Source: an uncultured virus (IMG/VR IMGVR_UViG_3300047170_000110) (Duplodnaviria > Heunggongvirae > Uroviricota > Caudoviricetes). Taken from it: 45,963 nucleotides of DNA. The DNA lies in IMG/VR virus record IMGVR_UViG_3300047170_000110. One strand, given 5' to 3'. The notes under the pieces were generated by a model. The model was not told the DNA's origin, did not search any database, and saw only the letters and a program-made list of their open reading frames with translations. Position 1 is the stretch's first letter. Each line of letters starts with the position of its first letter. The translations under genes were made by a program, and so were the position numbers. Positions 23,197-33,490 of this stretch are shown here, one piece after another.

Positions 23197-23361
23197 AGGG
23201 GGTCGGACCCAGAAATTAACAACCTTGCAAAACCAAGCTTACTTTCTCTGTATCGGGCCAAAGGCTGCCTATCAGGAGAGCAGCCCAGTATAAAAAAAAC
23301 CACGGCTCACCTGAACAAGAAAAATTCAAATCGTTTGAACAATTCTAGGAGAGCACTTTCA

Positions 23362-24474
23362 ATGGCCATCAATCCTTATTCCAAGAAAACGGTCGTCGTG
23401 ACCAAGACTGGGAACGAACTCAGCGAATCCCGCACGGCGCTCAACATCAACCCCAAGAACGGCAAGCTCGAAGCTGGCGCAGGCGCCTTCGAAGACAAGC
23501 ACGGCGAAATCAACGCCGGTTCGAAGAAAGAAGTCATGCAGCGCATCGGCGCTCTCGCTCTCGCCGCCTCCCAAGGCGACGTTCAAGAGCAGCATGAATT
23601 CGCCAACCAGCGCGCGGAACTCGTCGAAGCGGCCATGGCCGACAAGTCGGGCGAGACCTGGAGGGTCGTCGGTGAAGTCCTCGGCGATGAGATTTTAGAG
23701 ACGATGGGCCGTGACGGATTCCTCCGCAAGGTCATGATGCGCAAGGATCTGAAGAAGGGCGAGATCGGCCGTCTGCGCGTCCGTAAGAAGGACGTGATGG
23801 CGTTCTACGCCACCACGGACTCCACGGGCGTCACCAGCCAGATCAATCAGTTCTATCTGTTCCCTGACGAGTTTTACGTCAAGGCGCACATCCTGATCGA
23901 AGACCGCGAACTCGAACAGGCTCCCGGCGACTTGCTCGATGACAAATACATCGACGGCCTGGAACAGATGATGGTGAAAGAAGACCAAGTCCTCAAAGGC
24001 TTGCTCGATGTCGCCGCCACGTCCTACAACGACCCGGTCGGCTTCACGACCTTCTCGCCTTCCGTGTTCGCCCAGTCGCGCACGCAGATCCAACAGTGGG
24101 GCAATCCTTGCGCCACCGGCATCATCGCCATGGATTTGTGGAATGACATTTTGAGCGATCCAGAATTCGCGACGTATTTCGATCCCGTCACGAAGCGCGA
24201 AGTCATCATGTCCGGATCCCTCGGATCCTTCTACGGCGTCAACCTCATCACGGACGGGTTCCGTTATGACACGTTGCAAGTTCTTCAGCCTGGGGAGTTT
24301 TACTTCCTCTCGGCTCCGAACGTGCTCGGCGCCCAGACGGTCCGAAAGGACGTGACGACCGCCCCGATCAACATGTACCTCATCGGCAAGCCTGAAAGAG
24401 GCTGGTATATGCAAAAAATCATGGGCCTCTCGGTCGCCAACGGCCGCGCTGTCGTTCACGGAGTGCGGACGTAA
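23362..24474 (+). CDS. major capsid protein (HK97-fold, probable)
   Basis: 370 aa; own RBS, late motif and terminator; 'GLEQMMVKEDQVL..LL', 'GSLGSFYGVNLITD', 'PGEFYFL..P..LG' resemble large-myophage MCPs. Confidence 0.8.
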   Translation: MAINPYSKKTVVVTKTGNELSESRTALNINPKNGKLEAGAGAFEDKHGEINAGSKKEVMQRIGALALAASQGDVQEQHEFANQRAELVEAAMADKSGETWRVVGEVLGDEILETMGRDGFLRKVMMRKDLKKGEIGRLRVRKKDVMAFYATTDSTGVTSQINQFYLFPDEFYVKAHILIEDRELEQAPGDLLDDKYIDGLEQMMVKEDQVLKGLLDVAATSYNDPVGFTTFSPSVFAQSRTQIQQWGNPCATGIIAMDLWNDILSDPEFATYFDPVTKREVIMSGSLGSFYGVNLITDGFRYDTLQVLQPGEFYFLSAPNVLGAQTVRKDVTTAPINMYLIGKPERGWYMQKIMGLSVANGRAVVHGVRT

Positions 24475-24499: not shown

Positions 24500-24533
24500 A
24501 AAACGGGGGAGGCACTGCTTCCCCCGTTTTTTT
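24500..24533. terminator. bidirectional terminator
   Basis: AAAACGGGGGAGGC..GCTTCCCCCGTTTTTTT between convergent genes. Confidence 0.85.
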
Positions 24534-25030
24534 TATTTTAAGTAGGACCAGCTTCGGCCGCGTTTGATGTCCGAGATGAGATAACGGTTCACTCCAAATC
24601 GTTTCGCAATCGCCACGGTTGTGTAACCTGCCGCCAAAAGTTCCCGGATGTCCCGCACCTGCTCTTCAGTCACGATCGCCTTCGGATGATTTTCCCCCTG
24701 TGGGGAGGTCCCATGCCGTCTGCGATCCAGCTGGTTCTCGCTGGCCGTCCCCCAGATCACGTTCTCCAATCGGCAGTCCTCATTCCGGCCGTTCAAATGC
24801 CGGACCTCGTATTCCGATGAAGGGCGTGGCCCTCGGAAGGTCGTGCAGACGAGGATATGGACCAGCTGGGTGGGATACTTCCCGTCCCGGGCCAGCCGGA
24901 CAACGAGGTAGCCGTTATCCGATCTGCCGGGCTTGAGCTTCTTCTCGCGGCCATTGGCGAACCCCACGCTCCAAATAGAGCCATCCTCGTCCGCCTCGTA
25001 GCCTGGAAACCCCGGGATTGCCTTGCGCAT
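24533..25030 (-). CDS. NUMOD4-HNH homing endonuclease with C-terminal HTH
   Basis: IPGFPGYEA...G.IWS; LVHILVC..F.GPRP; VRHLNG...DCRLENVIWGT.SEN. Confidence 0.9.
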   Translation of the reverse strand: MRKAIPGFPGYEADEDGSIWSVGFANGREKKLKPGRSDNGYLVVRLARDGKYPTQLVHILVCTTFRGPRPSSEYEVRHLNGRNEDCRLENVIWGTASENQLDRRRHGTSPQGENHPKAIVTEEQVRDIRELLAAGYTTVAIAKRFGVNRYLISDIKRGRSWSYLK

Positions 25031-25111
25031 GGGGCCCTTTATCCAAATACATCCGGTTTGAATAGCCCCGCGAGAATTTCGCTGACCATTCTCGCTTATT
25101 TTTAGTTAAAT

Positions 25112-25477
25112 ATGCGTGAGGACCCCATGAAGTCAAACTCCACCCCTAAAAGCCACCGGCTGCTTCAGATCGCCCGCGCGACGCTTGATCGGGGCGGGGC
25201 GGAGAACGAAGTCGTGGCTCGCGAGATGGCCGTACTGGCCCTCAGATCGGAAGACGCCATGGATGCCCTGGACAAGCTCCTACCCAAAGTCCCCGAGCCT
25301 GAGATGCGGGAAGAGGACTTCGAAGAAAACCTCGAAGAAACCCAGGTCGCCCAGATCCGCGCGATGGCCAATGAGCTGGTCGCACGGAAGAAGGATTGGA
25401 TCGCCAAATCCATTCTCGCCCGCTTGGACCAAATCGACGAGGCGAAGAAGCGCCGCCGGGCCAAGACCCAGAAGTAA
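25112..25477 (+). CDS. hypothetical late protein (start may be ATG 25127)
   Basis: Helical, charged; CTTATTTTT motif at about 25095. Confidence 0.6.
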   Translation: MREDPMKSNSTPKSHRLLQIARATLDRGGAENEVVAREMAVLALRSEDAMDALDKLLPKVPEPEMREEDFEENLEETQVAQIRAMANELVARKKDWIAKSILARLDQIDEAKKRRRAKTQK

Positions 25478-25538
25478 GTTCGGCATCATCGCCCTGGATG
25501 TCCGGAAAGATGTGCTGGAATCCAGGTTATTTTCAGGT

Positions 25539-25766
25539 ATGGATCTGAAGACCAAGTATCCAGCGCTCGCAGCCGTCGTACCGAAAGGTGCGGGCCCTTG
25601 CTGCATGTGTCATCAGCGTATGTCCGATCAGGACGGCTTTCAGCTGTGTCCGGACTGCCAGGAGAGCATCAACAACTCTACCGGCCTGGGGCTTGACTAC
25701 GCGTCGGTCGCGAGTGTAATCGAAGATTCGAAGTACCCCACCGTGGCCGAAATCTCCGGCCACTAG
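25539..25766 (+). CDS. small Zn-finger late protein (MDLKTKYPAL...)
   Basis: CCMC..CPDC; GGTTATTTT motif 12 nt before ATG. Confidence 0.6.
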   Translation: MDLKTKYPALAAVVPKGAGPCCMCHQRMSDQDGFQLCPDCQESINNSTGLGLDYASVASVIEDSKYPTVAEISGH

Positions 25767-25767
25767 G

Positions 25768-25795
25768 TTGACCTCCTCCCAACCCTCCACATAAT
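25768..25795 (+). promoter_or_regulatory. sigma70-like promoter of the amber operon
   Basis: TTGACC-N16-CATAAT. Confidence 0.6.
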
Positions 25796-25856
25796 AGTTT
25801 CAAGCAAGCCTGCCTCGCGGGCTCGCCGCGTTTCACCCTCATTCCAGGAGGCTCCC

Positions 25857-25886
25857 GTGTTCTACTAGGTGCTGCACCCTCCCTAA
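25857..25886 (+). CDS. leader peptide with internal amber codon (M-F-Y-TAG-V-L-H-P-P-TAA)
   Basis: AGGAGG at 25846-25851, 5-nt spacer, GTG TTC TAC TAG GTG CTG CAC CCT CCC TAA. Confidence 0.65.
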
Positions 25887-25945
25887 AGCTCTCCAAGATC
25901 CAGCGTTCGCCCGTTTAACCCGAACCCTAATTTTTGGAGACTTTA
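25884..25945 (+). promoter_or_regulatory. RBS-sequestering helix (putative translational attenuator)
   Basis: TAAAG-c-TCTCCAAGA (25884-25898) pairs with TTTTGGAGACTTTA (25932-25945), covering GGAG and the A of ATG; inner GTTCG/CGAAC hairpin. Confidence 0.65.
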
Positions 25946-26301
25946 TGAAATCCGTCGTCCTTTCTGAAATGAAGACCGAACTGAAATCCATGGCCGCGCA
26001 GATCCGGACCAACCGGCCGCTCGCGCGGGCCGCCGAATCCAACCAAGCCCGCAACCTCCCCTTCGAATACCCCACCCCCAATCCGTACGCTTTGTCCGAG
26101 CAATTCCGTTTCCTTCACATCGTCTACTGCCTGATGCGTGGGAGGACGATGGAGCAGATCGAACAGAAGCGCCGGTACACGCCCTACGCATTCCAGGCGC
26201 GCATCGATCGCCTTCGGGGGATCTACCAGCCCCGTCTGGATGCCGAACGCGCTCAGGCTGCCCAGGAAGCCGCTCCGGAGGCCGTGCATGACGTAGGGTG
26301 A
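25945..26301 (+). CDS. small helical phage protein (gene A of amber operon)
   Basis: 118 aa; FRFLHIVYCLMRGRTMEQIE motif; GGAG RBS. Confidence 0.8.
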   Translation: MKSVVLSEMKTELKSMAAQIRTNRPLARAAESNQARNLPFEYPTPNPYALSEQFRFLHIVYCLMRGRTMEQIEQKRRYTPYAFQARIDRLRGIYQPRLDAERAQAAQEAAPEAVHDVG

Positions 26302-26575
26302 GAAGCTCTACGTCTTGGTAGAAGCGAGCCTCTCGTCTTCCCAGCGAGCCGTGCAGGCCGCGCATGGGGTTGCCCAGTATTGCCTGGACCACCCCGATAC
26401 GCCCTGGCGGAACGGAACGATCGTCCTGCTGGTGGTCGAAGGGCTCGAAGCCTACATCCAAGGGCACGACCTAGGGCGTCATTCGGTGTTCCGAGAACCG
26501 GACGCTGGGGATCTGCTGACGGCCGTAGTGGGCTTGGATTTTAAAAGAATTACGAAGAGGTTGCCTATGTTGTAA
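26288..26575 (+). CDS. Pth2-like peptidyl-tRNA hydrolase with in-frame TAG at codon 3
   Basis: GGAGG-6nt-ATG ACG TAG GGT GAG AAG CTC TAC GTC TTG; KLYVLV...L..SQ.AVQAAH, W.NGTIVLL and FREPD....LTAV resemble the Pth2 fold. Confidence 0.75.
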
Positions 26576-26654
26576 ACCGGCAAAAGATCGGCCCTCTCCA
26601 GTAGGTTAGAACCTAGCTTACTTATTGGAGAGGATCGGTAAAAGCACATCAAAT

Positions 26655-26731
26655 GGACCCGTAGCTCAGTTGGGTAGAGCGGCCGATTCTAAATCGGCAG
26701 GTCGTGGGTTCGAACCCCACCGGGTCCTCCA
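26655..26731 (+). tRNA. amber suppressor tRNA, anticodon CUA
   Basis: Cloverleaf: GGACCCG/CGGGTCC-T-CCA; D stem GCTC/GAGC; GCCGA-TT[CTA]AA-TCGGC (anticodon 26689-26691); GTGGG-TTCGAAC-CCCAC. Confidence 0.95.
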
Positions 26732-26843
26732 AAATAAGCGCCACATGCTCGCCAAGGGGAGGGAACGCCCTGAGGCTGGACGACGATTGCACGGGAGCGT
26801 CGAAGTTGTGGGACACCGGATCCAGGGGCGCTAACCCTTGGGG

Positions 26844-27689
26844 CTAGGGGGAGAGAGCGCCCTCATTTTTTTCTGTAGGACCAGGAAGTAGTTTTGTTCC
26901 CGACTTGATCGCCAGCAACACGCGCTCTTTGTCTTTAAAGAAAGAATCGATCCGATCCGCGAGCGCGCAGATCCCGATCATCACCTCGTAAAAGAATTTC
27001 GCCGCCTCTTCGGTGTAGGGCATCTCTTTGAGTCCCTCGGGCAACTCGTAGCCGTCCTCCCGGGACCCTTCGTCAAAGAACCAAATGCCGGTAAAGCCAT
27101 TCAGCTTGGCTCTCCAGGAAACATCCGATCCGTGATGGTTCTCCAGGCCGTCTTCCGGGGTGTACCGGATCTTGGTGCCGGAAGATCGGGTGAAGGTTTG
27201 CTTGGTAATGACTCGGGCCATGAAGCCGACCTGAAAGAAGTCGGACTGCTTCATGTGTCCGTCCAGGTTTCCGAACCAATCCCCCTGGCCTTTACCATAC
27301 ACGGGTGCGTATCCCCCGTTGGGGTAAATCGTGCCGTCCTTCCCCTTGTAGAACGAGACTCGGTTGTCCGTGCCGTATACGAGGATCAGCTCTTCCGTAA
27401 CCGTGCAGGCAACGTGATCTTCGGCTGCCTTCTGGCTAAAGTCCTCCAGAAGCCGGAGTGTCTTGGCCGCGAGACGGGTCTTCCCCCGGTGGTAGTCGAT
27501 CCCTACGTCTTCCCACTCAGGTTTGGCGGAGTTCCGATCCACTCGTTTGAGTCGCTCCGCCGATTCCAGAAGTTCCTCGGGCACGGTTGTCCGGAAAATT
27601 CCGGTCGAATCCACCGTCACGTCCAGGTCCTTAGAGAACTTTTGGACAGGGGATTTGGCGATCACTCGGATCGTGCTAATTTTAGCCAT
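26844..27689 (-). CDS. hypothetical protein (MAKISTIRV...), paralog of 28499-29134
   Basis: GAAGGA RBS before ATG 27689; C-terminal EMPYTEEAAKFF motif. Confidence 0.7.
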   Translation of the reverse strand: MAKISTIRVIAKSPVQKFSKDLDVTVDSTGIFRTTVPEELLESAERLKRVDRNSAKPEWEDVGIDYHRGKTRLAAKTLRLLEDFSQKAAEDHVACTVTEELILVYGTDNRVSFYKGKDGTIYPNGGYAPVYGKGQGDWFGNLDGHMKQSDFFQVGFMARVITKQTFTRSSGTKIRYTPEDGLENHHGSDVSWRAKLNGFTGIWFFDEGSREDGYELPEGLKEMPYTEEAAKFFYEVMIGICALADRIDSFFKDKERVLLAIKSGTKLLPGPTEKNEGALSP

Positions 27690-29574: not shown

Positions 29575-31041
29575 TCACGCCCTCTTTCGTTTGGTCTTGG
29601 CCTTTTCATCAGCCGCCACCATCTTCACCATCTCGCGAACCGTCTGGATCTCCCCAAGCGAGTTCACGACCGCGATTTCATCGCAGAAAGCTTCCAGGTC
29701 ATCCCCATCCGTCCCGTCCCCGTTGATGTGATCGTTGATCGCCACTCCGAAGATGCGGACCGAGGTTTCCTCCTTGAGCCGGAGGATCTCCTTCAGCTGC
29801 GCGTCCGAGAACCGGTACTCGCCGTCCGTGATGAGCACGATGTCGGCGGGCTTCAAATCCTTGTCCTTCTGGCGCATCTCAAAAGCGGCCTTGAGGGGCT
29901 TGTAGAAATCCGTACCGCCATCCACATCAAGGGAGGCGATTGCAATCTTGTCCTGGATCGGAACGGACATCCCGCGAGCGAAAAATCTCCGGTACTTCAC
30001 TTCCGCGTTGAAGGCCGAGTAGCCAAAAGCCCGCTTCTGTTTTTCCGCGAGATGCATCATGGCGATCGAGACGGCTTTCGCCCACTCGCTCCGGGCTCCC
30101 TTCATAGAATAGGAATGATCTTCGAGGAGGATCAACGGGCCACGACCCAGGTTGTCCACGCCGCGCAAGTTGTACACGAGGCACTTCCCCTCCAGGAGAT
30201 CGCGGTAAAAAGATTTAGGGCTGCGCTTGAGCTTAATCATCTCGGTCGGCAGCATATGCTCCAGGTTCCGGCCCGGACCTACGTCCACCAGCTCGTCGTT
30301 CCCATGGCGCGGGATGATCGCCTTGGCCGCGTTCACCACGTTCTTGAAGCGACCCACCAGCTCGGCGACCGAGGCGAGTTTCGGAGTCTTGAGGAGCTTT
30401 TCGGCCAGCTCCATGCGTTGCTTGAAAGGGACCTGTTTGAGTTCGGCCGGATCCGCGCCCCAGCTCCCACGGGCGTTCTCCCATTGGTCCACCGCACCCT
30501 GCGCGTCTTTGATCCCCTGGCGGAGACCGTTACGGAGATCCGAAAGCTCTTCGTCGGACAGGATGTCGGACAACTGGACTTCGCCGTTCGGGCCGGAACC
30601 TTCACCGGGCTTAGGGGGTTCGCGATCTTCCTCTTCGAGTTTCTCCTCGATCTCTTCGAGCTTCTCCAGGAGCGCGGGAGCCAGCTGGAGGGTCCCGAAC
30701 GCGGAAGCGATCTCATCGAGCTTGGCGCTCGCGTGCAGCTGCTTGTATTCGGGGAGCGCCATCAACTGCTCGGCCAGGCCCTTCTGGACCATCGGAGCGG
30801 TCTCTTTGACCTTGGGCGAGAGCTTGTAAAGGGAGCTGAAAACGTCCTGCACGAGCGCCTCCGAAGCGGGGCTATCGTCGATCAGGTCTCCGACCTTCGT
30901 CTGGGCCATCTCCTTGAAGATCAGCTGGTCCATCGAGTCCACGTGGATCGCAGCCAGGTCTGCCGCTTCGGCCGAAGCCAAGGCGCGATCGTAGGGAGGT
31001 TTCTTCGAAGCTTTTTTAGGCGCGGCCGTTTGGGTTTTCAT
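29575..31041 (-). CDS. ViaA/CoxE-like VWA-domain protein
   Basis: MIDAS LEDHSYSM, GGTDF..PL, ADIVLITDGE; 'GRNLEHMLPTE' ViaA-like segment. Confidence 0.9.
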   Translation of the reverse strand: MKTQTAAPKKASKKPPYDRALASAEAADLAAIHVDSMDQLIFKEMAQTKVGDLIDDSPASEALVQDVFSSLYKLSPKVKETAPMVQKGLAEQLMALPEYKQLHASAKLDEIASAFGTLQLAPALLEKLEEIEEKLEEEDREPPKPGEGSGPNGEVQLSDILSDEELSDLRNGLRQGIKDAQGAVDQWENARGSWGADPAELKQVPFKQRMELAEKLLKTPKLASVAELVGRFKNVVNAAKAIIPRHGNDELVDVGPGRNLEHMLPTEMIKLKRSPKSFYRDLLEGKCLVYNLRGVDNLGRGPLILLEDHSYSMKGARSEWAKAVSIAMMHLAEKQKRAFGYSAFNAEVKYRRFFARGMSVPIQDKIAIASLDVDGGTDFYKPLKAAFEMRQKDKDLKPADIVLITDGEYRFSDAQLKEILRLKEETSVRIFGVAINDHINGDGTDGDDLEAFCDEIAVVNSLGEIQTVREMVKMVAADEKAKTKRKRA

Positions 31042-31093
31042 AGTTATCAGTATATTGGCTTTATCAGTACATTGCTAGTGTGTCAATCGAGAC

Positions 31094-31120
31094 AGGGGTC
31101 CTGGACAGCGCCCAGGACCC
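31094..31120 (-). terminator. GC hairpin between DUF6744-like and VWA genes
   Basis: GGGGTCCTGG..CCAGGACCCC; weak U-tract. Confidence 0.5.
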
Positions 31121-31135
31121 CTTGAATCTAAAGGA

Positions 31136-32080
31136 TTAAACGAGGTGTTGTTTCAGGAGCGCGGAAAGGGAGGACAATTCCGTCTTCAGGCTGCTGGCCG
31201 TACCGGTCAGGAGGGTCTCGTACATTTCGACCTTGCTCTGAAGGGACTTGAAAACCTTCAGGCGAGCTTCGATACCGCGATCGGTGGTAGGGGGATTCGT
31301 CTGGAGCTTTTCCTTCTCGCTTGCGAGCTGCGCTTCGATTTCACCCACGAGGGACTTCCACATGCTCTTCTTAGCTTGGGCGGTATCGATCACGGGGATG
31401 ATTCCGAGCGAGCACTGGGGGAAGAAGGCGAAAAACTTCTGGAGCTTCTGGAATTCGGCACTATAGGTCGAAGGGACGAAGTACACGCCGCCGTTGTCGC
31501 GAACGGAGATCGCCATGCACTCCTGCCGGAGGTACCGAAGGATCGCTTCGCGGGCGTTGTCCACGTTGTAGAAGCCCTGCTCGGCTTTGTAGCCGTCATG
31601 GACGGCCTGAGCGTTGTGACCATCGACCTTGATCTGCGAAGTCTTCTTGTCGAAGATGATCTGCGTGTCGGTCTGGAAATCGACCTTGTTGGCCGTGCTG
31701 GCATCGAGCCGCTGAGCGACGATCACAAACAGCGTGTGGGCCGGGGATTCGATCGTGCGGTAGAATGAATTCTTACGGGTCGCGGTTTCCTTCTGAATCG
31801 CGCGGACCAGGGCGGATTTGCTGCGCACTTCGCCCGCGATCTCCGGAGAGATGCCCGCTTCCTGGAGCTTTGCCACGAATTCGGAGAACACCATATTGAT
31901 GTTCGTCAGGGACCAGTAGGCGCACTCGCCCAGGAGCGGGTAACCTTCAGCGGAGCTTGCAATCAGACTCCGGGTGACCTGCTTGACGGGCTTCGGAGCG
32001 GCGGCAGCGGCCGGAGCGACGGTCTTCATGGGCGGGAGCTTCTTGGACTTTTTGGCGGAGGGGGTAGTTTGGGTTTTCAT
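31136..32080 (-). CDS. MoxR-associated conserved protein (DUF6744-like)
   Basis: 'LLG...YWSL', 'AISVRDNGGVYFVP', C-terminal coiled coil; lies between MoxR and VWA genes. Confidence 0.65.
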   Translation of the reverse strand: MKTQTTPSAKKSKKLPPMKTVAPAAAAAPKPVKQVTRSLIASSAEGYPLLGECAYWSLTNINMVFSEFVAKLQEAGISPEIAGEVRSKSALVRAIQKETATRKNSFYRTIESPAHTLFVIVAQRLDASTANKVDFQTDTQIIFDKKTSQIKVDGHNAQAVHDGYKAEQGFYNVDNAREAILRYLRQECMAISVRDNGGVYFVPSTYSAEFQKLQKFFAFFPQCSLGIIPVIDTAQAKKSMWKSLVGEIEAQLASEKEKLQTNPPTTDRGIEARLKVFKSLQSKVEMYETLLTGTASSLKTELSSLSALLKQHLV

Positions 32081-32109
32081 ATCGGTTCCTTTCGTTTGAG
32101 GGTTTGGGA

Positions 32110-33249
32110 TTATTCGACGCCGAGTTCGTCTCGGACGAATTTCTGATTGGTCGCATCGACCTGGGCGATGGCCTTATCGAGCTTCGTGTTGTTCATGCCG
32201 GGCTTGCGGAGGTTCTTGAGGGTATCGAGGGACTTCTTGAGCTTCTTCTGGACTTCGAAGGCTTCCAGGCCTTGCTCCCGCTTCCGCCAGCGACCGAGGA
32301 CATCCTGGACCGCATCGGTCTGCGCGGTGATCGCTTCTCCGAGCGGGTTGGAGACTTTCGCGACCATCTGGCGGACCTTCTTGATTTCTTCGGGCGAGGA
32401 CCAGAGCATCGCTTCCAGGATTTCGAGATCGTCCGCTTCCACTTCCGAGTGGCCGTTCAAGTAGGCCTGGGCCTTGATGATGTTGAGGGTCTGGGTCCAG
32501 CGACGGTCGGAGATCTCCATGCCCGAATTTTTCACTTCGGTGCGGAGTTCGAGGATCAGGTCCAGGATCTTTTCCGAGACCGGGAGGGCCATCGCGGCGG
32601 CTTGCTCTTGCTTGATCTTTTCCAGCGGGACGTGCGGGAGTTCCGGACCCTTGCCGGACTGGAGATCAAGCTTGAGCTTCAGGAGAGATTTCATGTTCGC
32701 GTCGTCCTGGATCGCCGCGACCTCAAACCGAACCACCATGCGGTCCCAGAAAGCTTCCAGACCTTCCGCGTCGGGGATGGAATTGGCGGCCGAGTAGAAG
32801 GCTTCGAGAGGGCATTGCACGACCGTGTCGCCGCCGTTTTGGTAGATGCGCTCGTTGATGACCGGCAAGAAGGTGTCGAGGATCGAGGGGCTTCCGCGAG
32901 GGGCTTCGTCGATAAAGGCGATATGGCAGTCGGGGAGCTTGCCACGGATGACGCGCTCGTGAACGTCGTTCTCCATGGACTTGAAGCTCACAGGTCCAAA
33001 GAGTTCTTCGGGGGTGGTGAACTTGTTCATGGTTTTTTCGAAGTACCGGCCGCCGAGCATGCGGGTCAGCACGCGGTAGAGTTCGGACTTGCCCGTGCCC
33101 GGAGGCCCGAGAAGAAACATCGCCTGGCGAGCTAGGAGCGTGACGATCGTTCCGTCGATCACGCTGTCACGTTCTTTGAAAAGTTCTTTCAGGGTGGTCC
33201 GAAGGGTCTGGACCGAAGCTTCAGCGGGGGCTTTCTTATTAGTAGACAT
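32110..33249 (-). CDS. MoxR/RavA-like AAA+ ATPase
   Basis: Walker A GPPGTGKS, TTPEELFGP, Walker B AFIDE, AFWDR, ISDRRW. Confidence 0.92.
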   Translation of the reverse strand: MSTNKKAPAEASVQTLRTTLKELFKERDSVIDGTIVTLLARQAMFLLGPPGTGKSELYRVLTRMLGGRYFEKTMNKFTTPEELFGPVSFKSMENDVHERVIRGKLPDCHIAFIDEAPRGSPSILDTFLPVINERIYQNGGDTVVQCPLEAFYSAANSIPDAEGLEAFWDRMVVRFEVAAIQDDANMKSLLKLKLDLQSGKGPELPHVPLEKIKQEQAAAMALPVSEKILDLILELRTEVKNSGMEISDRRWTQTLNIIKAQAYLNGHSEVEADDLEILEAMLWSSPEEIKKVRQMVAKVSNPLGEAITAQTDAVQDVLGRWRKREQGLEAFEVQKKLKKSLDTLKNLRKPGMNNTKLDKAIAQVDATNQKFVRDELGVE

Positions 33250-33490
33250 AAACACTCAACCTCTCTTCTTCTCTCAATTTACTTTATGCGGGCCGTCATG
33301 TCTACAATTATGTCTAGCGTATCCCCGATTTAGCTAGTACCTTAATAATATTAAGTATTTAGTTATTCAGGGGAGGCTGGATAGACCTCCGACAGGTGCT
33401 TGATCCGAGAGGTAGGGCATGAGATTGCGGGCGTGCGGACGCCCGGCGCGAGATCGCGCGAACGCGGGGGAGGGGGATGGAGGGGTGGGG

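What the first reader, a model, noticed from the sequence alone, without database searches (positions are those of the whole stretch)
25846..25947. Amber-containing leader peptide positioned to unmask the RBS of gene A
Seen: AGGAGG-N5-GTG TTC TAC TAG GTG CTG CAC CCT CCC TAA. The TAA and following bases (25884-25898) form a 14-bp helix with one bulged C against 25932-25945, which holds the GGAG SD and the start A of gene A. Inference: a ribosome stopping at TAG (25866-25868) barely reaches the helix, while one reading through to TAA must melt it and frees gene A for initiation. This would be a translational attenuator that senses stop-codon readthrough. The terminal Pro-Pro-stop could slow release and prolong opening.
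Basis: partly seen in the sequence, partly recalled or inferred. Interest (0 to 1): 0.88.

Follow-up and report, generated by a model that had tools for sequence, protein, structure and literature searches.

The report
Amber-gated leader senses suppressor tRNA
A ten-codon upstream reading frame with a built-in amber stop appears to let a phage switch on a downstream gene only when its own stop-codon-reading tRNA is working, which would make it a natural sensor of a genetic-code change.

Summary

It sits in a phage operon: promoter-like site, leader, gene A, a PTH2-fold gene B, an amber-suppressor tRNA (CUA, 26655-26731), then a terminator-like site.

Distant relatives of gene A (20-38% identity) keep the same layout. 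By hand, 20 of 21 lineages have a mini-ORF with an early in-frame stop. In 13 of those 20 the frame stays open to Pro-Pro-stop beside the arm that pairs with gene A's SD. An automated pattern was met in 16-18 of 21, against 1.5-3.4 in shuffles; TGA or TAA versions stayed at chance.

A DNA-pattern scan that used no protein found 18 stretches, 11 with a tRNA-CUA within 1.5 kb. TGA and TAA control patterns gave 2 and 9 stretches, none with a tRNA.

With a modelled ribosome, opening gene A's RBS costs 15.4 kcal/mol at TAG and 4.9 at TAA. All 29 loci fall the same way.

No description was found in print. Gene A's function is unknown.

The parts
25768..25795 (+). sigma-70-like promoter TTGACC-16-CATAAT, just after the upstream ORF's TAG
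   Evidence: 10 of 12 matches. 3 promoter-like sites found in 25000-27000 against a mean of 0.7 in shuffles. A consensus match only.
25804..25826 (+). 5' hairpin at the predicted start of the transcript
   Evidence: MFE and centroid structure. Function not tested.
25846..25851 (+). Shine-Dalgarno AGGAGG of the leader, 5 nt before GTG. In the MFE it pairs with the CCUCC of the Pro-Pro codons.
25857..25886 (+). leader ORF: GTG TTC TAC TAG GTG CTG CAC CCT CCC TAA
   Evidence: Counterparts found by hand in 20 of 21 related lineages.
25866..25868 (+). in-frame amber codon (codon 4), followed by a purine
   Evidence: The first internal stop is followed by A or G in 20 of 20 leaders (read).
25878..25886 (+). 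Pro-Pro-TAA end of the leader, the proposed stall site
   Evidence: 13 of 20 leaders end Pro-Pro-stop, using seven different codon pairs.
25884..25898 (+). 5' arm of the masking helix. It starts at the leader's TAA; the anti-SD CUCC is at 25891-94.
   Evidence: SD partners lie at +7..+10 from the TAA
25932..25945 (+). 3' arm of the masking helix, holding GGAG (25936-39) and the A of gene A's ATG
25945..26301 (+). gene A, 118 aa, all-helical, function unknown. Invariant residues R55, H58, G66-R67-T68-M69, Q71-I72-E73.
   Evidence: 1504 cluster representatives at E<=1e-3
26276..26280 (+). GGAGG, 7 nt before ATG 26288, the probable start of gene B
26288..26575 (+). gene B, PTH2-fold. Probably starts ATG ACG TAG GGT..., so it has an amber at codon 3 (26294-96). 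The alternative start, TTG 26315, would cut the conserved first strand.
26655..26731 (+). amber-suppressor tRNA, anticodon CUA, with 3' CCA encoded
   Evidence: Rfam tRNA 71.6 bits; sequence
26847..26874 (+). terminator-like hairpin plus T run, the likely end of the unit
   Evidence: A consensus match only.

Best explanation
The leader is a translated mini-ORF that acts as a translational attenuator and reports whether UAG is being read as sense.

Without an active suppressor tRNA, or with RF1 winning, ribosomes start at GTG 25857 and release at UAG after three codons. Their front edge stays short of 25884, so the helix 25884-98/25932-45 keeps gene A's SD and AUG closed.

When the phage's own tRNA-CUA decodes UAG, the ribosome goes five codons further and stops at Pro-Pro-UAA. 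That is a C-terminus known to slow release. It then sits on the 5' arm of the helix, which frees gene A's RBS.

Gene A is therefore made only once amber suppression works. Gene B is gated more simply, by an amber at its third codon. The tRNA lies in the same unit.

Shown here: the sequence features, their conservation, their link with suppressor tRNAs, and the modelled energetics. Inferred: that the leader is translated, that the ribosome stalls at Pro-Pro-stop, the ON/OFF direction in vivo, and any role of gene A.
For: (1) An amber-suppressor tRNA lies downstream on the same strand. 19 of the 31 places examined (the window plus L002-L031) carry a suppressor tRNA, 17 of them CUA. Many of the rest are short contigs.

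(2) By hand, 20 of 21 lineages with at least 160 nt upstream have a mini-ORF with an early in-frame stop and a frame open beyond it. The automated pattern (start, at most 7 codons, TAG, at least 4 codons, then TAA or TGA 15-95 nt before gene A) was met in 16 of 21 with ATG starts, or 18 of 21 with ATG/GTG/TTG starts. Shuffles gave means of 1.5 and 3.4, with maxima of 6 and 10 in 300. With TGA as the internal stop it was 1-2 of 21, and with TAA 2-5 of 21, which is chance level.

(3) The spacing between TAG and the final stop varies from 18 to 63 nt, yet the frame is kept.

(4) 13 of 20 leaders end Pro-Pro-stop, using seven different codon pairs. These include CCC CCA, CCA CCC and CCG CCT, which are not anti-SD-like.

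(5) The most probable partners of gene A's SD lie within -20..+15 of the final stop in 19 of 20 loci.

(6) With a modelled footprint, the cost of opening the RBS in the window is 15.3 kcal/mol free, 15.4 at TAG and 4.9 at TAA. The means over 29 loci are 9.4 free, 10.0 at the internal stop and 3.6 at the final stop. All 29 are lower at the final stop (Wilcoxon p = 3.7e-9), and 22-23 of 29 drop by 3 kcal/mol or more. A codon-by-codon scan of the window gives 15.8 at TAG and 5.1 at TAA, with a minimum of 4.7 one codon later.

(7) A pattern-only scan of IMG/VR found 18 stretches. 13 were in frame and 11 had a tRNA-CUA within 1.5 kb. The TGA version found 2 and the TAA version 9, with no tRNA near any of those 11.

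(8) The one locus with an ochre tRNA (UUA, L020) has TAA, not TAG, as the internal stop of the homologous leader.

(9) Gene B carries in-frame TAG in L005, L007, L009, L013, L024, L026, L030 and L068, so these phages do read TAG as sense.

(10) Passages of PMC6412442 state that poly-Pro C-termini lower termination efficiency most, that the base after UAG affects RF1 recognition, and that multiple UAGs cut leak.
Against: There are no expression, ribosome-footprint or reporter data. No RNA run holds the sequence.

In the window no long gene has a convincing in-frame TAG. By my reading of the ORF table, about 8 of about 46 likely genes still end in TAG, so how strongly this phage suppresses amber is unknown.

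The simple measure P(SD paired) separates real from shuffled leaders only weakly: mean 0.87 against 0.69.

There are exceptions. L019 has no leader. L012, L015 and L024 have the Pro-Pro inside the ORF, and L029 has no terminal proline. L018's helix is not in the MFE.

Six lineages have no suppressor tRNA in the DNA held. L009 has a TAG leader but only a UCA tRNA nearby.

The ochre covariation rests on one locus, whose leader AUG lacks a clear SD.

The footprint limits are assumed and the energies are equilibrium values. The window's leader is the only one that starts with GTG.
Confidence: 0.72

Rival explanations
1. Constitutive uORF. In a phage where TAG is simply a sense codon, the leader is an ordinary upstream ORF whose translation always opens gene A's RBS. 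The amber then has no sensing role.
For: Gene B of several relatives contains TAG as a sense codon. The structural part of the model would work the same way.
Against: TAG occurs at most once per roughly 100 codons in gene B. Yet 19 of 20 leaders of 9-25 codons have one or two, always near the 5' end and always followed by a purine. Gene A itself has no TAG in any of the 24 aligned sequences. These phages infect cells whose release factor presumably reads UAG, so an early UAG acts as a gate.
Confidence: 0.1
2. Transcriptional polarity. Readthrough of the leader mainly protects the transcript from Rho-dependent or other premature termination. It would then control transcription of gene A, gene B and the tRNA rather than initiation at gene A.
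For: The engineered analogue works this way: a TAG placed in trp or tna leaders unmasks a rut site (passages of PMC6412442). The tRNA lies downstream in the same unit.
Against: No terminator-like site was found between 25800 and 25960. The conserved pairing partner is specifically the SD of gene A. The two mechanisms could coexist.
Confidence: 0.07
3. Minigene. The functional unit is the two-to-four-codon ORF ending at UAG. It would act through peptidyl-tRNA drop-off, like the bar minigenes of phage lambda (recalled), and the PTH2-like gene B would deal with the product.
For: A strong SD and a very short ORF. A peptidyl-tRNA-hydrolase fold is encoded in the same operon.
Against: This does not explain the frame kept open beyond UAG, the Pro-Pro-stop, or the placing of the final stop on the masking helix.
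Confidence: 0.04
4. C-terminal extension. The frame is the readthrough tail of the upstream protein (25539-25766, ending in TAG), and the leader start is not used.
For: The leader is in frame with that ORF, with no TAA or TGA between them. In L011, L015 and L029 the leader's TAG ends a longer upstream ORF.
Against: A promoter-like site and a hairpin lie between the ORF and the leader in the window. Most relatives have a separate SD and ATG with no long upstream ORF. Being in frame and free of stops over 30 codons is not unlikely by chance (my rough estimate, about 0.2). Ribosomes arriving this way would open the helix just as well.
Confidence: 0.03
5. Chance. The small ORF is accidental and the helix is ordinary 5' UTR structure.
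For: In the window alone the fold is only modestly better than shuffles (z = -2.81). SD-start-TAG strings are no more common in the window than the TAA or TGA versions (17, 14 and 11).
Against: Recurrence in 20 of 21 lineages and in the pattern-only scan with its controls.
Confidence: 0.02

Closest known systems
ermC / cat-type leader-peptide translational attenuation (recalled, not from a call)
   Same: A short translated leader. A ribosome held at a defined leader codon melts a hairpin that hides the SD of the next gene. The output is translation initiation.
   Different: In ermC and cat the stall is induced by an antibiotic bound to the ribosome. Here, whether the ribosome reaches the stall site at all depends on decoding an in-frame stop codon.
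trp / his / leu / pheA leader-peptide attenuators (recalled)
   Same: The leader measures the supply of one charged tRNA through how far the ribosome gets over diagnostic codons. Some leaders here have two diagnostic codons.
   Different: Those act on an intrinsic terminator. No terminator-like site was found here. The tRNA sensed here is a suppressor competing with a release factor, and the tRNA gene itself lies in the regulated unit.
prfB (RF2) autoregulatory in-frame UGA (recalled)
   Same: An early in-frame stop codon serves as a gauge of termination efficiency.
   Different: prfB escapes by a +1 frameshift within one ORF. Here there is in-frame readthrough by a dedicated tRNA, and the output is on a separate gene through RNA structure.
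tnaC (cited through references listed in PMC6412442; details recalled)
   Same: The nascent peptide ends in Pro-stop and release is slow, so the stalled ribosome controls downstream expression.
   Different: TnaC senses free tryptophan and acts on Rho termination. No TnaC-like residues are present.
Engineered amber-in-leader switches (PMC6412442, section 6 and Figure 8 legend, passages seen)
   Same: A TAG placed in a leader peptide makes downstream expression depend on a suppressor tRNA.
   Different: Those are man-made, transcriptional, and based on trp or tna leaders. This one is natural, conserved and SD-masking.
'Code change module' of recoded phages (bioRxiv 10.1101/2021.08.26.457843, passages seen)
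   Same: A cluster of genes around a suppressor tRNA in phages that read a stop codon as sense.
   Different: [quoted passage not shown] The main text holds no 'peptidyl' and the passages shown name no leader. Here the partners are gene A and a PTH2-fold protein, behind an amber-gated leader.

Membership tests
Leader-peptide translational attenuator (erm/cat type) | Short upstream ORF with its own SD that is really translated | tested here: inconclusive
   The SD and start are present. ORF continuity across the internal stop is conserved far above shuffles and above the TGA and TAA versions. Translation itself was not observed.
Leader-peptide translational attenuator (erm/cat type) | SD of the regulated gene held in a hairpin whose 5' arm lies in or next to the leader ORF | tested here: met
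   The helix is in the MFE. SD partners lie within -20..+15 of the final stop in 19 of 20 loci.
Leader-peptide translational attenuator (erm/cat type) | A ribosome at the regulatory leader codon opens the RBS, while a ribosome elsewhere does not | tested here: met
   In silico only. Window: 15.4 kcal/mol at TAG against 4.9 at TAA. All 29 loci are lower at the final stop.
Leader-peptide translational attenuator (erm/cat type) | Stalling induced by a ribosome-bound antibiotic | not testable with these tools
   Nothing in the sequence suggests it. The proposed input is amber suppression.
Amino-acid operon transcription attenuators (trp type) | Alternative terminator and antiterminator hairpins with a U run before the first gene | tested here: not met
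   No terminator-like site was found in 25800-25960. The 3' arm is followed by the AUG of gene A.
prfB-type programmed frameshift | Slippery CUU-UGA-C-type site with an internal SD, and the product continued in the +1 frame | tested here: not met
   The frame after TAG is the 0 frame and ends after five codons. The site details are recalled.
Rfam cis-regulatory families, including HDV-like ribozymes near phage tRNAs | Match to a curated covariance model | tested here: not met
   In 25400-27100 at E<=5, only tRNA reaches its gathering score. The other three matches (E 1.1e-05 to 3.6) fall below theirs, one of them antisense to the tRNA gene.
PTH2 peptidyl-tRNA hydrolase (gene B) | Match to Pfam PF01981 | tested here: inconclusive
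   6 of 8 members match at E<=1, best 3.5e-05. The window's own copy does not match.
PTH2 peptidyl-tRNA hydrolase (gene B) | PTH2 fold | tested here: met
   Model pLDDT 89. Seven of the 12 best Foldseek rows are titled peptidyl-tRNA hydrolase or Bit1 (3erj, 1xty, 1q7s); the rest are untitled archaeal proteins that I recall as the same family. Best E 7.4e-05, probability 1.00, TM 0.58-0.74. Catalysis was not tested.
Sigma-70 region 4 / HTH regulators (gene A) | Sequence or fold match to an HTH family | tested here: inconclusive
   The Atlas gives feature hits of 0.81-0.84 only, below the level it calls a lead. There is no Pfam, NCBIfam or PDB sequence match. Fold searches give only generic helical hairpins, Z<=6.4.

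The most novel reading that the evidence does not exclude
This is a natural genetic-code checkpoint. A module widespread in large phages (amber-gated stalling leader, gene A, PTH2-fold protein, suppressor tRNA) tests on the ribosome that UAG is now read as sense. Only then does it make gene A, a small regulator or translation factor that commits the infected cell to the recoded programme. This would be the missing trigger or timer of the phage code switch, and the first natural leader peptide that senses a suppressor tRNA.
Probability: 0.35. Interest if true: 0.95.

Novelty: new variant of a known kind. Interest (0 to 1): 0.88.

Why it matters
How phages that read a stop codon as sense coordinate the change of code with their gene-expression programme is an open question. 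Passages of PMC10879173 say that what triggers the switch is poorly understood. A cis-acting sensor of readthrough next to the suppressor tRNA makes that question directly testable with reporters.

It also adds a new input, stop-codon decoding, to leader-peptide attenuation. It defines a large unannotated protein family, with 1504 cluster representatives at E<=1e-3, tied to recoding. And it offers a compact natural part for circuits that report amber suppression.

Tried and rejected
- **Whole genome:** none is held for the window.
- **Close relatives in public phage records:** none; only tRNA matches.
- **Gene A as a single query in IMG/VR:** found nothing.
- **Capsid relative L001/G001:** 88% identical capsid, but different DNA after the capsid gene. 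No match to gene A or to the tRNA. The record is 81% complete, so this shows nothing.
- **Motif scan of genome contigs:** 25 stretches, none a family member; mostly one repeated bacterial protein and a few unrelated ones.
- **Motif scan of IMG/VR:** only 4 loci, all already known.
- **RNA evidence:** no RNA holder is listed.
- **Laid DNA contigs:** the same phage, nearly identical, in 5 runs of 4 studies. There is no variation in the leader, so this gives no covariation evidence.
- **Gene A with gene B complex job:** no verdict.
- **Gene A function:** no Pfam, PHROG, NCBIfam, PDB sequence or fold match. The Atlas lead to HTH proteins is too weak to use.
- **In-frame TAG in long genes of the window:** only antisense mirror frames looked coding-like.
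- **Other SD-start-TAG strings in the window:** 17, against 14 for TAA and 11 for TGA. Only the leader and the start of gene B lie where a gene starts.
- **P(SD paired) against shuffles:** a weak discriminator. I replaced it with partner position and RBS opening energy.
- **Literature:** full-text searches for a natural amber-containing leader found none.
Full report
**Observation.** AGGAGG lies at 25846-51, then five bases, then GTG 25857, TTC, TAC, TAG 25866-68, GTG, CTG, CAC, CCT CCC 25878-83 and TAA 25884-86. Positions 25884-98 pair with 25932-45 as 5 pairs, a bulged C (25889) and 9 pairs, one of them G-U. The 3' arm holds GGAG (25936-39) and the A of gene A's ATG (25945). RNAfold of 25800-25960 places this helix in the minimum-energy and centroid structures: -46.3 kcal/mol, z = -2.81, with 2 of 200 shuffles as good. 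Taken alone, that is only modestly unusual.

**Setting.** The window is phage DNA. It holds a major head protein (23335-24474, phrog_2522, E 9e-55), a tape measure protein, endonuclease VII, an HNH endonuclease and an SLT lysozyme. Its own contig is about 170 kb.

The unit reads as follows:
- promoter-like TTGACC-16-CATAAT (25768-95);
- a 5' hairpin;
- the leader;
- gene A (25945-26301);
- gene B (to 26575);
- the tRNA;
- a terminator-like site at 26847-74.

**Relatives.** Gene A has no Pfam or PHROG match. It does belong to a large family: 1504 cluster representatives at E<=1e-3 and 802 at E<=1e-10, among 1.84 billion proteins. The alignment of 24 sequences has nine invariant residues (R55, H58, G66-R67-T68-M69, Q71-I72-E73), which form the core of the motif.

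Thirty loci with relatives of 20-38% identity were fetched. Some are duplicates: L018 = L031, L002 = L003 = L004, L006 = L007 in gene A, L012 and L014 nearly alike, L022 and L023 nearly alike, and L024, L025 and L026 nearly alike.

Of the 31 places (the window plus 30 loci), 19 hold a suppressor tRNA:
- 17 have anticodon CUA;
- L020 has UUA;
- L009 has UCA, upstream of gene A.

Where gene B is present, the tRNA usually lies 12-80 nt after it. Most of the places without one are contigs of 1-2 kb. The tRNAs themselves are diverse, at 42-81% pairwise identity.

**The leader recurs.** Reading the 160-260 nt before gene A, I find by hand a mini-ORF with an early in-frame stop in 20 of 21 lineages.

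| Locus | Leader peptide (* = stop) |
|---|---|
| window | VFY*VLHPP* |
| L002 | MR*IYKTEYG*EKFKPP* |
| L008 | ML*TCFIYKPP* |
| L010 | MR*IKEQPP* |
| L016 | ML*IYARSPP* |
| L018 | MKIEFS*IQRAPP* |
| L022 | MT*VSFNPATAFQ*VRPFKPP* |
| L027 | MTYH*VSLDKPP* |
| L028 | MKLTS*IHTNNDP* |

The variants and exceptions are these:
- L019 has no leader.
- L012 has eight codons before the TAG.
- L009 runs on in frame into gene A through a second TAG.
- L029 has no terminal proline.
- L020, the locus with the ochre tRNA, has TAA as its internal stop: ATG AAG AAG CGT TAA ATT ... CCT CCT TAA. Its AUG lacks a clear SD, and another short frame exists nearby.

Other regularities across the 20 leaders:
- Thirteen end Pro-Pro-stop, with seven different codon pairs. 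Some of these are not anti-SD-like (CCC CCA, CCA CCC, CCG CCT), so the peptide, and not only the RNA, seems to be selected.
- All 20 first internal stops are followed by a purine.
- At least five leaders carry two TAGs.
- The last internal stop lies 18-63 nt before the final stop. The frame is therefore kept despite many insertions and deletions.

**Controls.** An automated pattern was defined as: start codon, at most 7 codons, TAG, at least 4 codons, then TAA or TGA ending 15-95 nt before gene A. One search gave the following.

| Internal stop | ATG starts only | ATG/GTG/TTG starts | Shuffle mean (maximum of 300) |
|---|---|---|---|
| TAG | 16 of 21 | 18 of 21 | 1.5 (6) and 3.4 (10) |
| TGA | 1 of 21 | 2 of 21 | 1.6 and 3.2 |
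| TAA | 2 of 21 | 5 of 21 | 2.7 and 5.5 |

One of the 18 TAG hits, in L009, is a different TTG frame from my hand-picked leader.

**Search without protein information.** I scanned IMG/VR with GGAG-N4-10-ATG NNN TAG RTT-N6-36-CCTCCNTRA.
- It gave 18 stretches, 13 of them distinct.
- 13 of 18 had the final stop in frame.
- 11 of 18 had a tRNA-CUA within 1.5 kb.
- One downstream gene is a clear gene A member (L070, E 4e-18).
- Three are weak profile matches at the same motif (L069, L072, L062).
- Five share a similar motif by eye only.
- A PTH2-like gene follows in L068, L069, L070, L072 and L074.
- The same pattern with TGA gave 2 stretches and with TAA gave 9. None of these 11 had any tRNA nearby, and 5 of the 9 TAA hits had further stops inside.

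**Structure and ribosome position.** In 19 of 20 loci the most probable partners of gene A's SD lie within -20..+15 nt of the first base of the leader's final stop. Two layouts occur. In one, the Pro-Pro codons themselves (CCUCC) are the anti-SD; this is seen in L002, L006, L013, L022 and L020. In the other, a second pyrimidine stretch a few bases after the stop does the pairing; this is seen in the window, L008, L017 and L027.

I modelled a ribosome as an unpaired stretch from 15 nt before to 11 nt after the first base of the A-site codon. These limits are my assumption. I then computed the free energy needed to open the RBS, taken as -15..+6.

| State | Window (kcal/mol) | Mean of 29 loci (kcal/mol) |
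|---|---|---|
| No ribosome | 15.3 | 9.4 |
| Ribosome at first internal stop | 15.4 | 10.0 |
| Ribosome at last internal stop | 15.4 | 10.0 |
| Ribosome at final stop | 4.9 | 3.6 |

All 29 loci are lower at the final stop (Wilcoxon p = 3.7e-9), and 22-23 of 29 drop by at least 3 kcal/mol. Moving the ribosome codon by codon along the window's leader gives 15.8 at TAG, 8.6 at the second Pro codon and 5.1 at TAA, with the minimum of 4.7 one codon later. The TAA is therefore placed almost optimally, and the TAG is placed where a ribosome has no effect.

A cruder measure, the probability that the SD is paired, separates real from shuffled leaders only weakly: 0.87 against 0.69.

**Mechanism.** The best reading is a translational attenuator gated by amber suppression. 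Release at UAG leaves gene A closed. Decoding of UAG by the phage tRNA carries the ribosome to Pro-Pro-stop on the masking helix and opens gene A.

Three further features fit a device tuned for a sharp response: slow release after a Pro-Pro C-terminus, the purine after UAG, and doubled UAGs. Passages of PMC6412442 state that poly-Pro C-termini lower termination efficiency most, that the base after UAG affects RF1 recognition, and that multiple UAGs reduce leak. The classical work on these effects I only recall.

Shown here are the sequence features, their conservation and the modelled energetics. Translation of the leader, the stall, and the direction of the switch in vivo are inferred.

**What is controlled.** Gene A models as four helices (pLDDT 89). 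It has no informative fold or sequence match. A language-model lead to sigma-70 region 4 or HTH proteins scores only 0.81-0.84.

Gene B has the PTH2 peptidyl-tRNA hydrolase fold. Pfam PF01981 matches 6 of 8 members weakly. Seven of the 12 best Foldseek rows are titled peptidyl-tRNA hydrolase or Bit1, with best E 7.4e-05; the other five are untitled archaeal proteins that I recall as the same family.

Genes A and B overlap, and in L008 they are fused into one frame.

Gene A has no TAG in any of the 24 aligned sequences. Gene B has an in-frame TAG in L005, L007, L009, L013, L024, L026, L030 and L068. In the window, the only SD-preceded start of gene B is GGAGG-N7-ATG ACG TAG GGT GAG AAG CTC TAC... 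This puts an amber at codon 3, just before the conserved first strand KLYVLV. Both proteins would then depend on suppression, one through the leader and one directly.

**Is this phage recoded?** Within the window I found no long gene with a convincing in-frame TAG. By my reading of the ORF table, about 8 of about 46 likely genes end in TAG. The other 124 kb of the contig was not available. The strength of suppression in this phage is therefore unknown, and this is the main weakness for the window's own copy.

**Known or new?** Rfam has nothing here except the tRNA. Five full-text searches found no natural amber-containing leader.
- In the recoding survey (bioRxiv 10.1101/2021.08.26.457843, passages only), the 'code change module' is a tRNA, a synthetase and a release factor. 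The word 'peptidyl' does not occur in its main text. Its supplementary Table S2 could not be read.
- The theta-ribozyme paper (PMC10879173, passages only) says that what triggers the switch is poorly understood. It does not contain the words 'leader' or 'upstream'.
- An engineered counterpart exists: a TAG placed in trp or tna leaders (PMC6412442, passages).
It is an unchecked lead suggesting that amber-gated starts may be used more widely.

I file this as a new variant of leader-peptide attenuation, with a new input.

**Limits.**
- All evidence is comparative or modelled.
- The lineages are not fully independent.
- The ochre case is a single locus.
- No close relatives with alignable leaders were obtainable. 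The other runs that hold this phage are nearly identical, so base-pair covariation in the window's own helix could not be tested.

Noticed in passing
window 26276-26305: Gene B (PTH2-fold) seems to begin GGAGG-N7-ATG ACG TAG GGT GAG AAG..., which puts an amber at codon 3, right before the conserved first strand. The next in-frame start (TTG 26315) would cut that strand.
   Followed up: partly
window 25539-25886: The upstream ORF ends at TAG 25764-66. Its frame runs on, without TAA or TGA, through the promoter-like site into the leader and its second TAG, ending at TAA 25884. In L011, L015 and L029 the leader's TAG is the stop codon of a longer upstream ORF.
   Followed up: partly
L008 682-1242: Gene A and the PTH2-like gene B are fused in one open frame. 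In the related locus L017 they are two overlapping genes.
   Followed up: partly
L007 272-1338: An ORF that begins like gene B (MKKLYVLIR...) continues as an HNH-like, cysteine-rich protein. A complete gene B follows at 1036-1338. This looks like a homing-endonuclease insertion with duplication of the gene's start.
   Followed up: no
window 26655-26731, position 26691: The suppressor tRNA is most similar to phage tRNA-Lys genes. Other tRNAs in the same metagenomes that lie on it differ at the third anticodon base, giving CTT (Lys). It encodes its CCA end and has a U before it. Suppressor tRNAs next to gene A relatives are only 42-81% alike.
   Followed up: partly
L022 about 300-350 and L023: By eye, TTGACA-17-CATAGT lies so close to the leader's ATG that the leader could be translated from a leaderless transcript.
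   Followed up: no
window 26585-26640: Between gene B and the tRNA there is an 8-bp inverted repeat (CCTCTCCA / TGGAGAGG) around a smaller hairpin. It contains TAGGTT, the same words as follow many leader ambers. Seen by eye only.
   Followed up: no
window 25847-25883: In the MFE the leader's own SD (GGAGG) pairs with the CCUCC of its Pro-Pro codons, and the TAG lies in the loop. L073, L011 and L024 show the same. This could make leader translation self-reinforcing.
   Followed up: no
L009 960-1240: This contig has a TAG leader and a TAG inside gene B. The only suppressor-like tRNA on it has anticodon UCA and lies upstream, beside a tRNA-Met.
   Followed up: no
window 24533-25030 and L001 7226-8983: Different homing-type endonuclease genes sit just after the major head gene in the window (HNH/NUMOD4) and in its 88%-identical capsid relative. 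Synteny ends there.
   Followed up: no
window 29575-33255 (- strand): A MoxR-type AAA ATPase (bpMoxR, E 4e-44), DUF6744 and a vWA protein form a cluster inside the phage.
   Followed up: no
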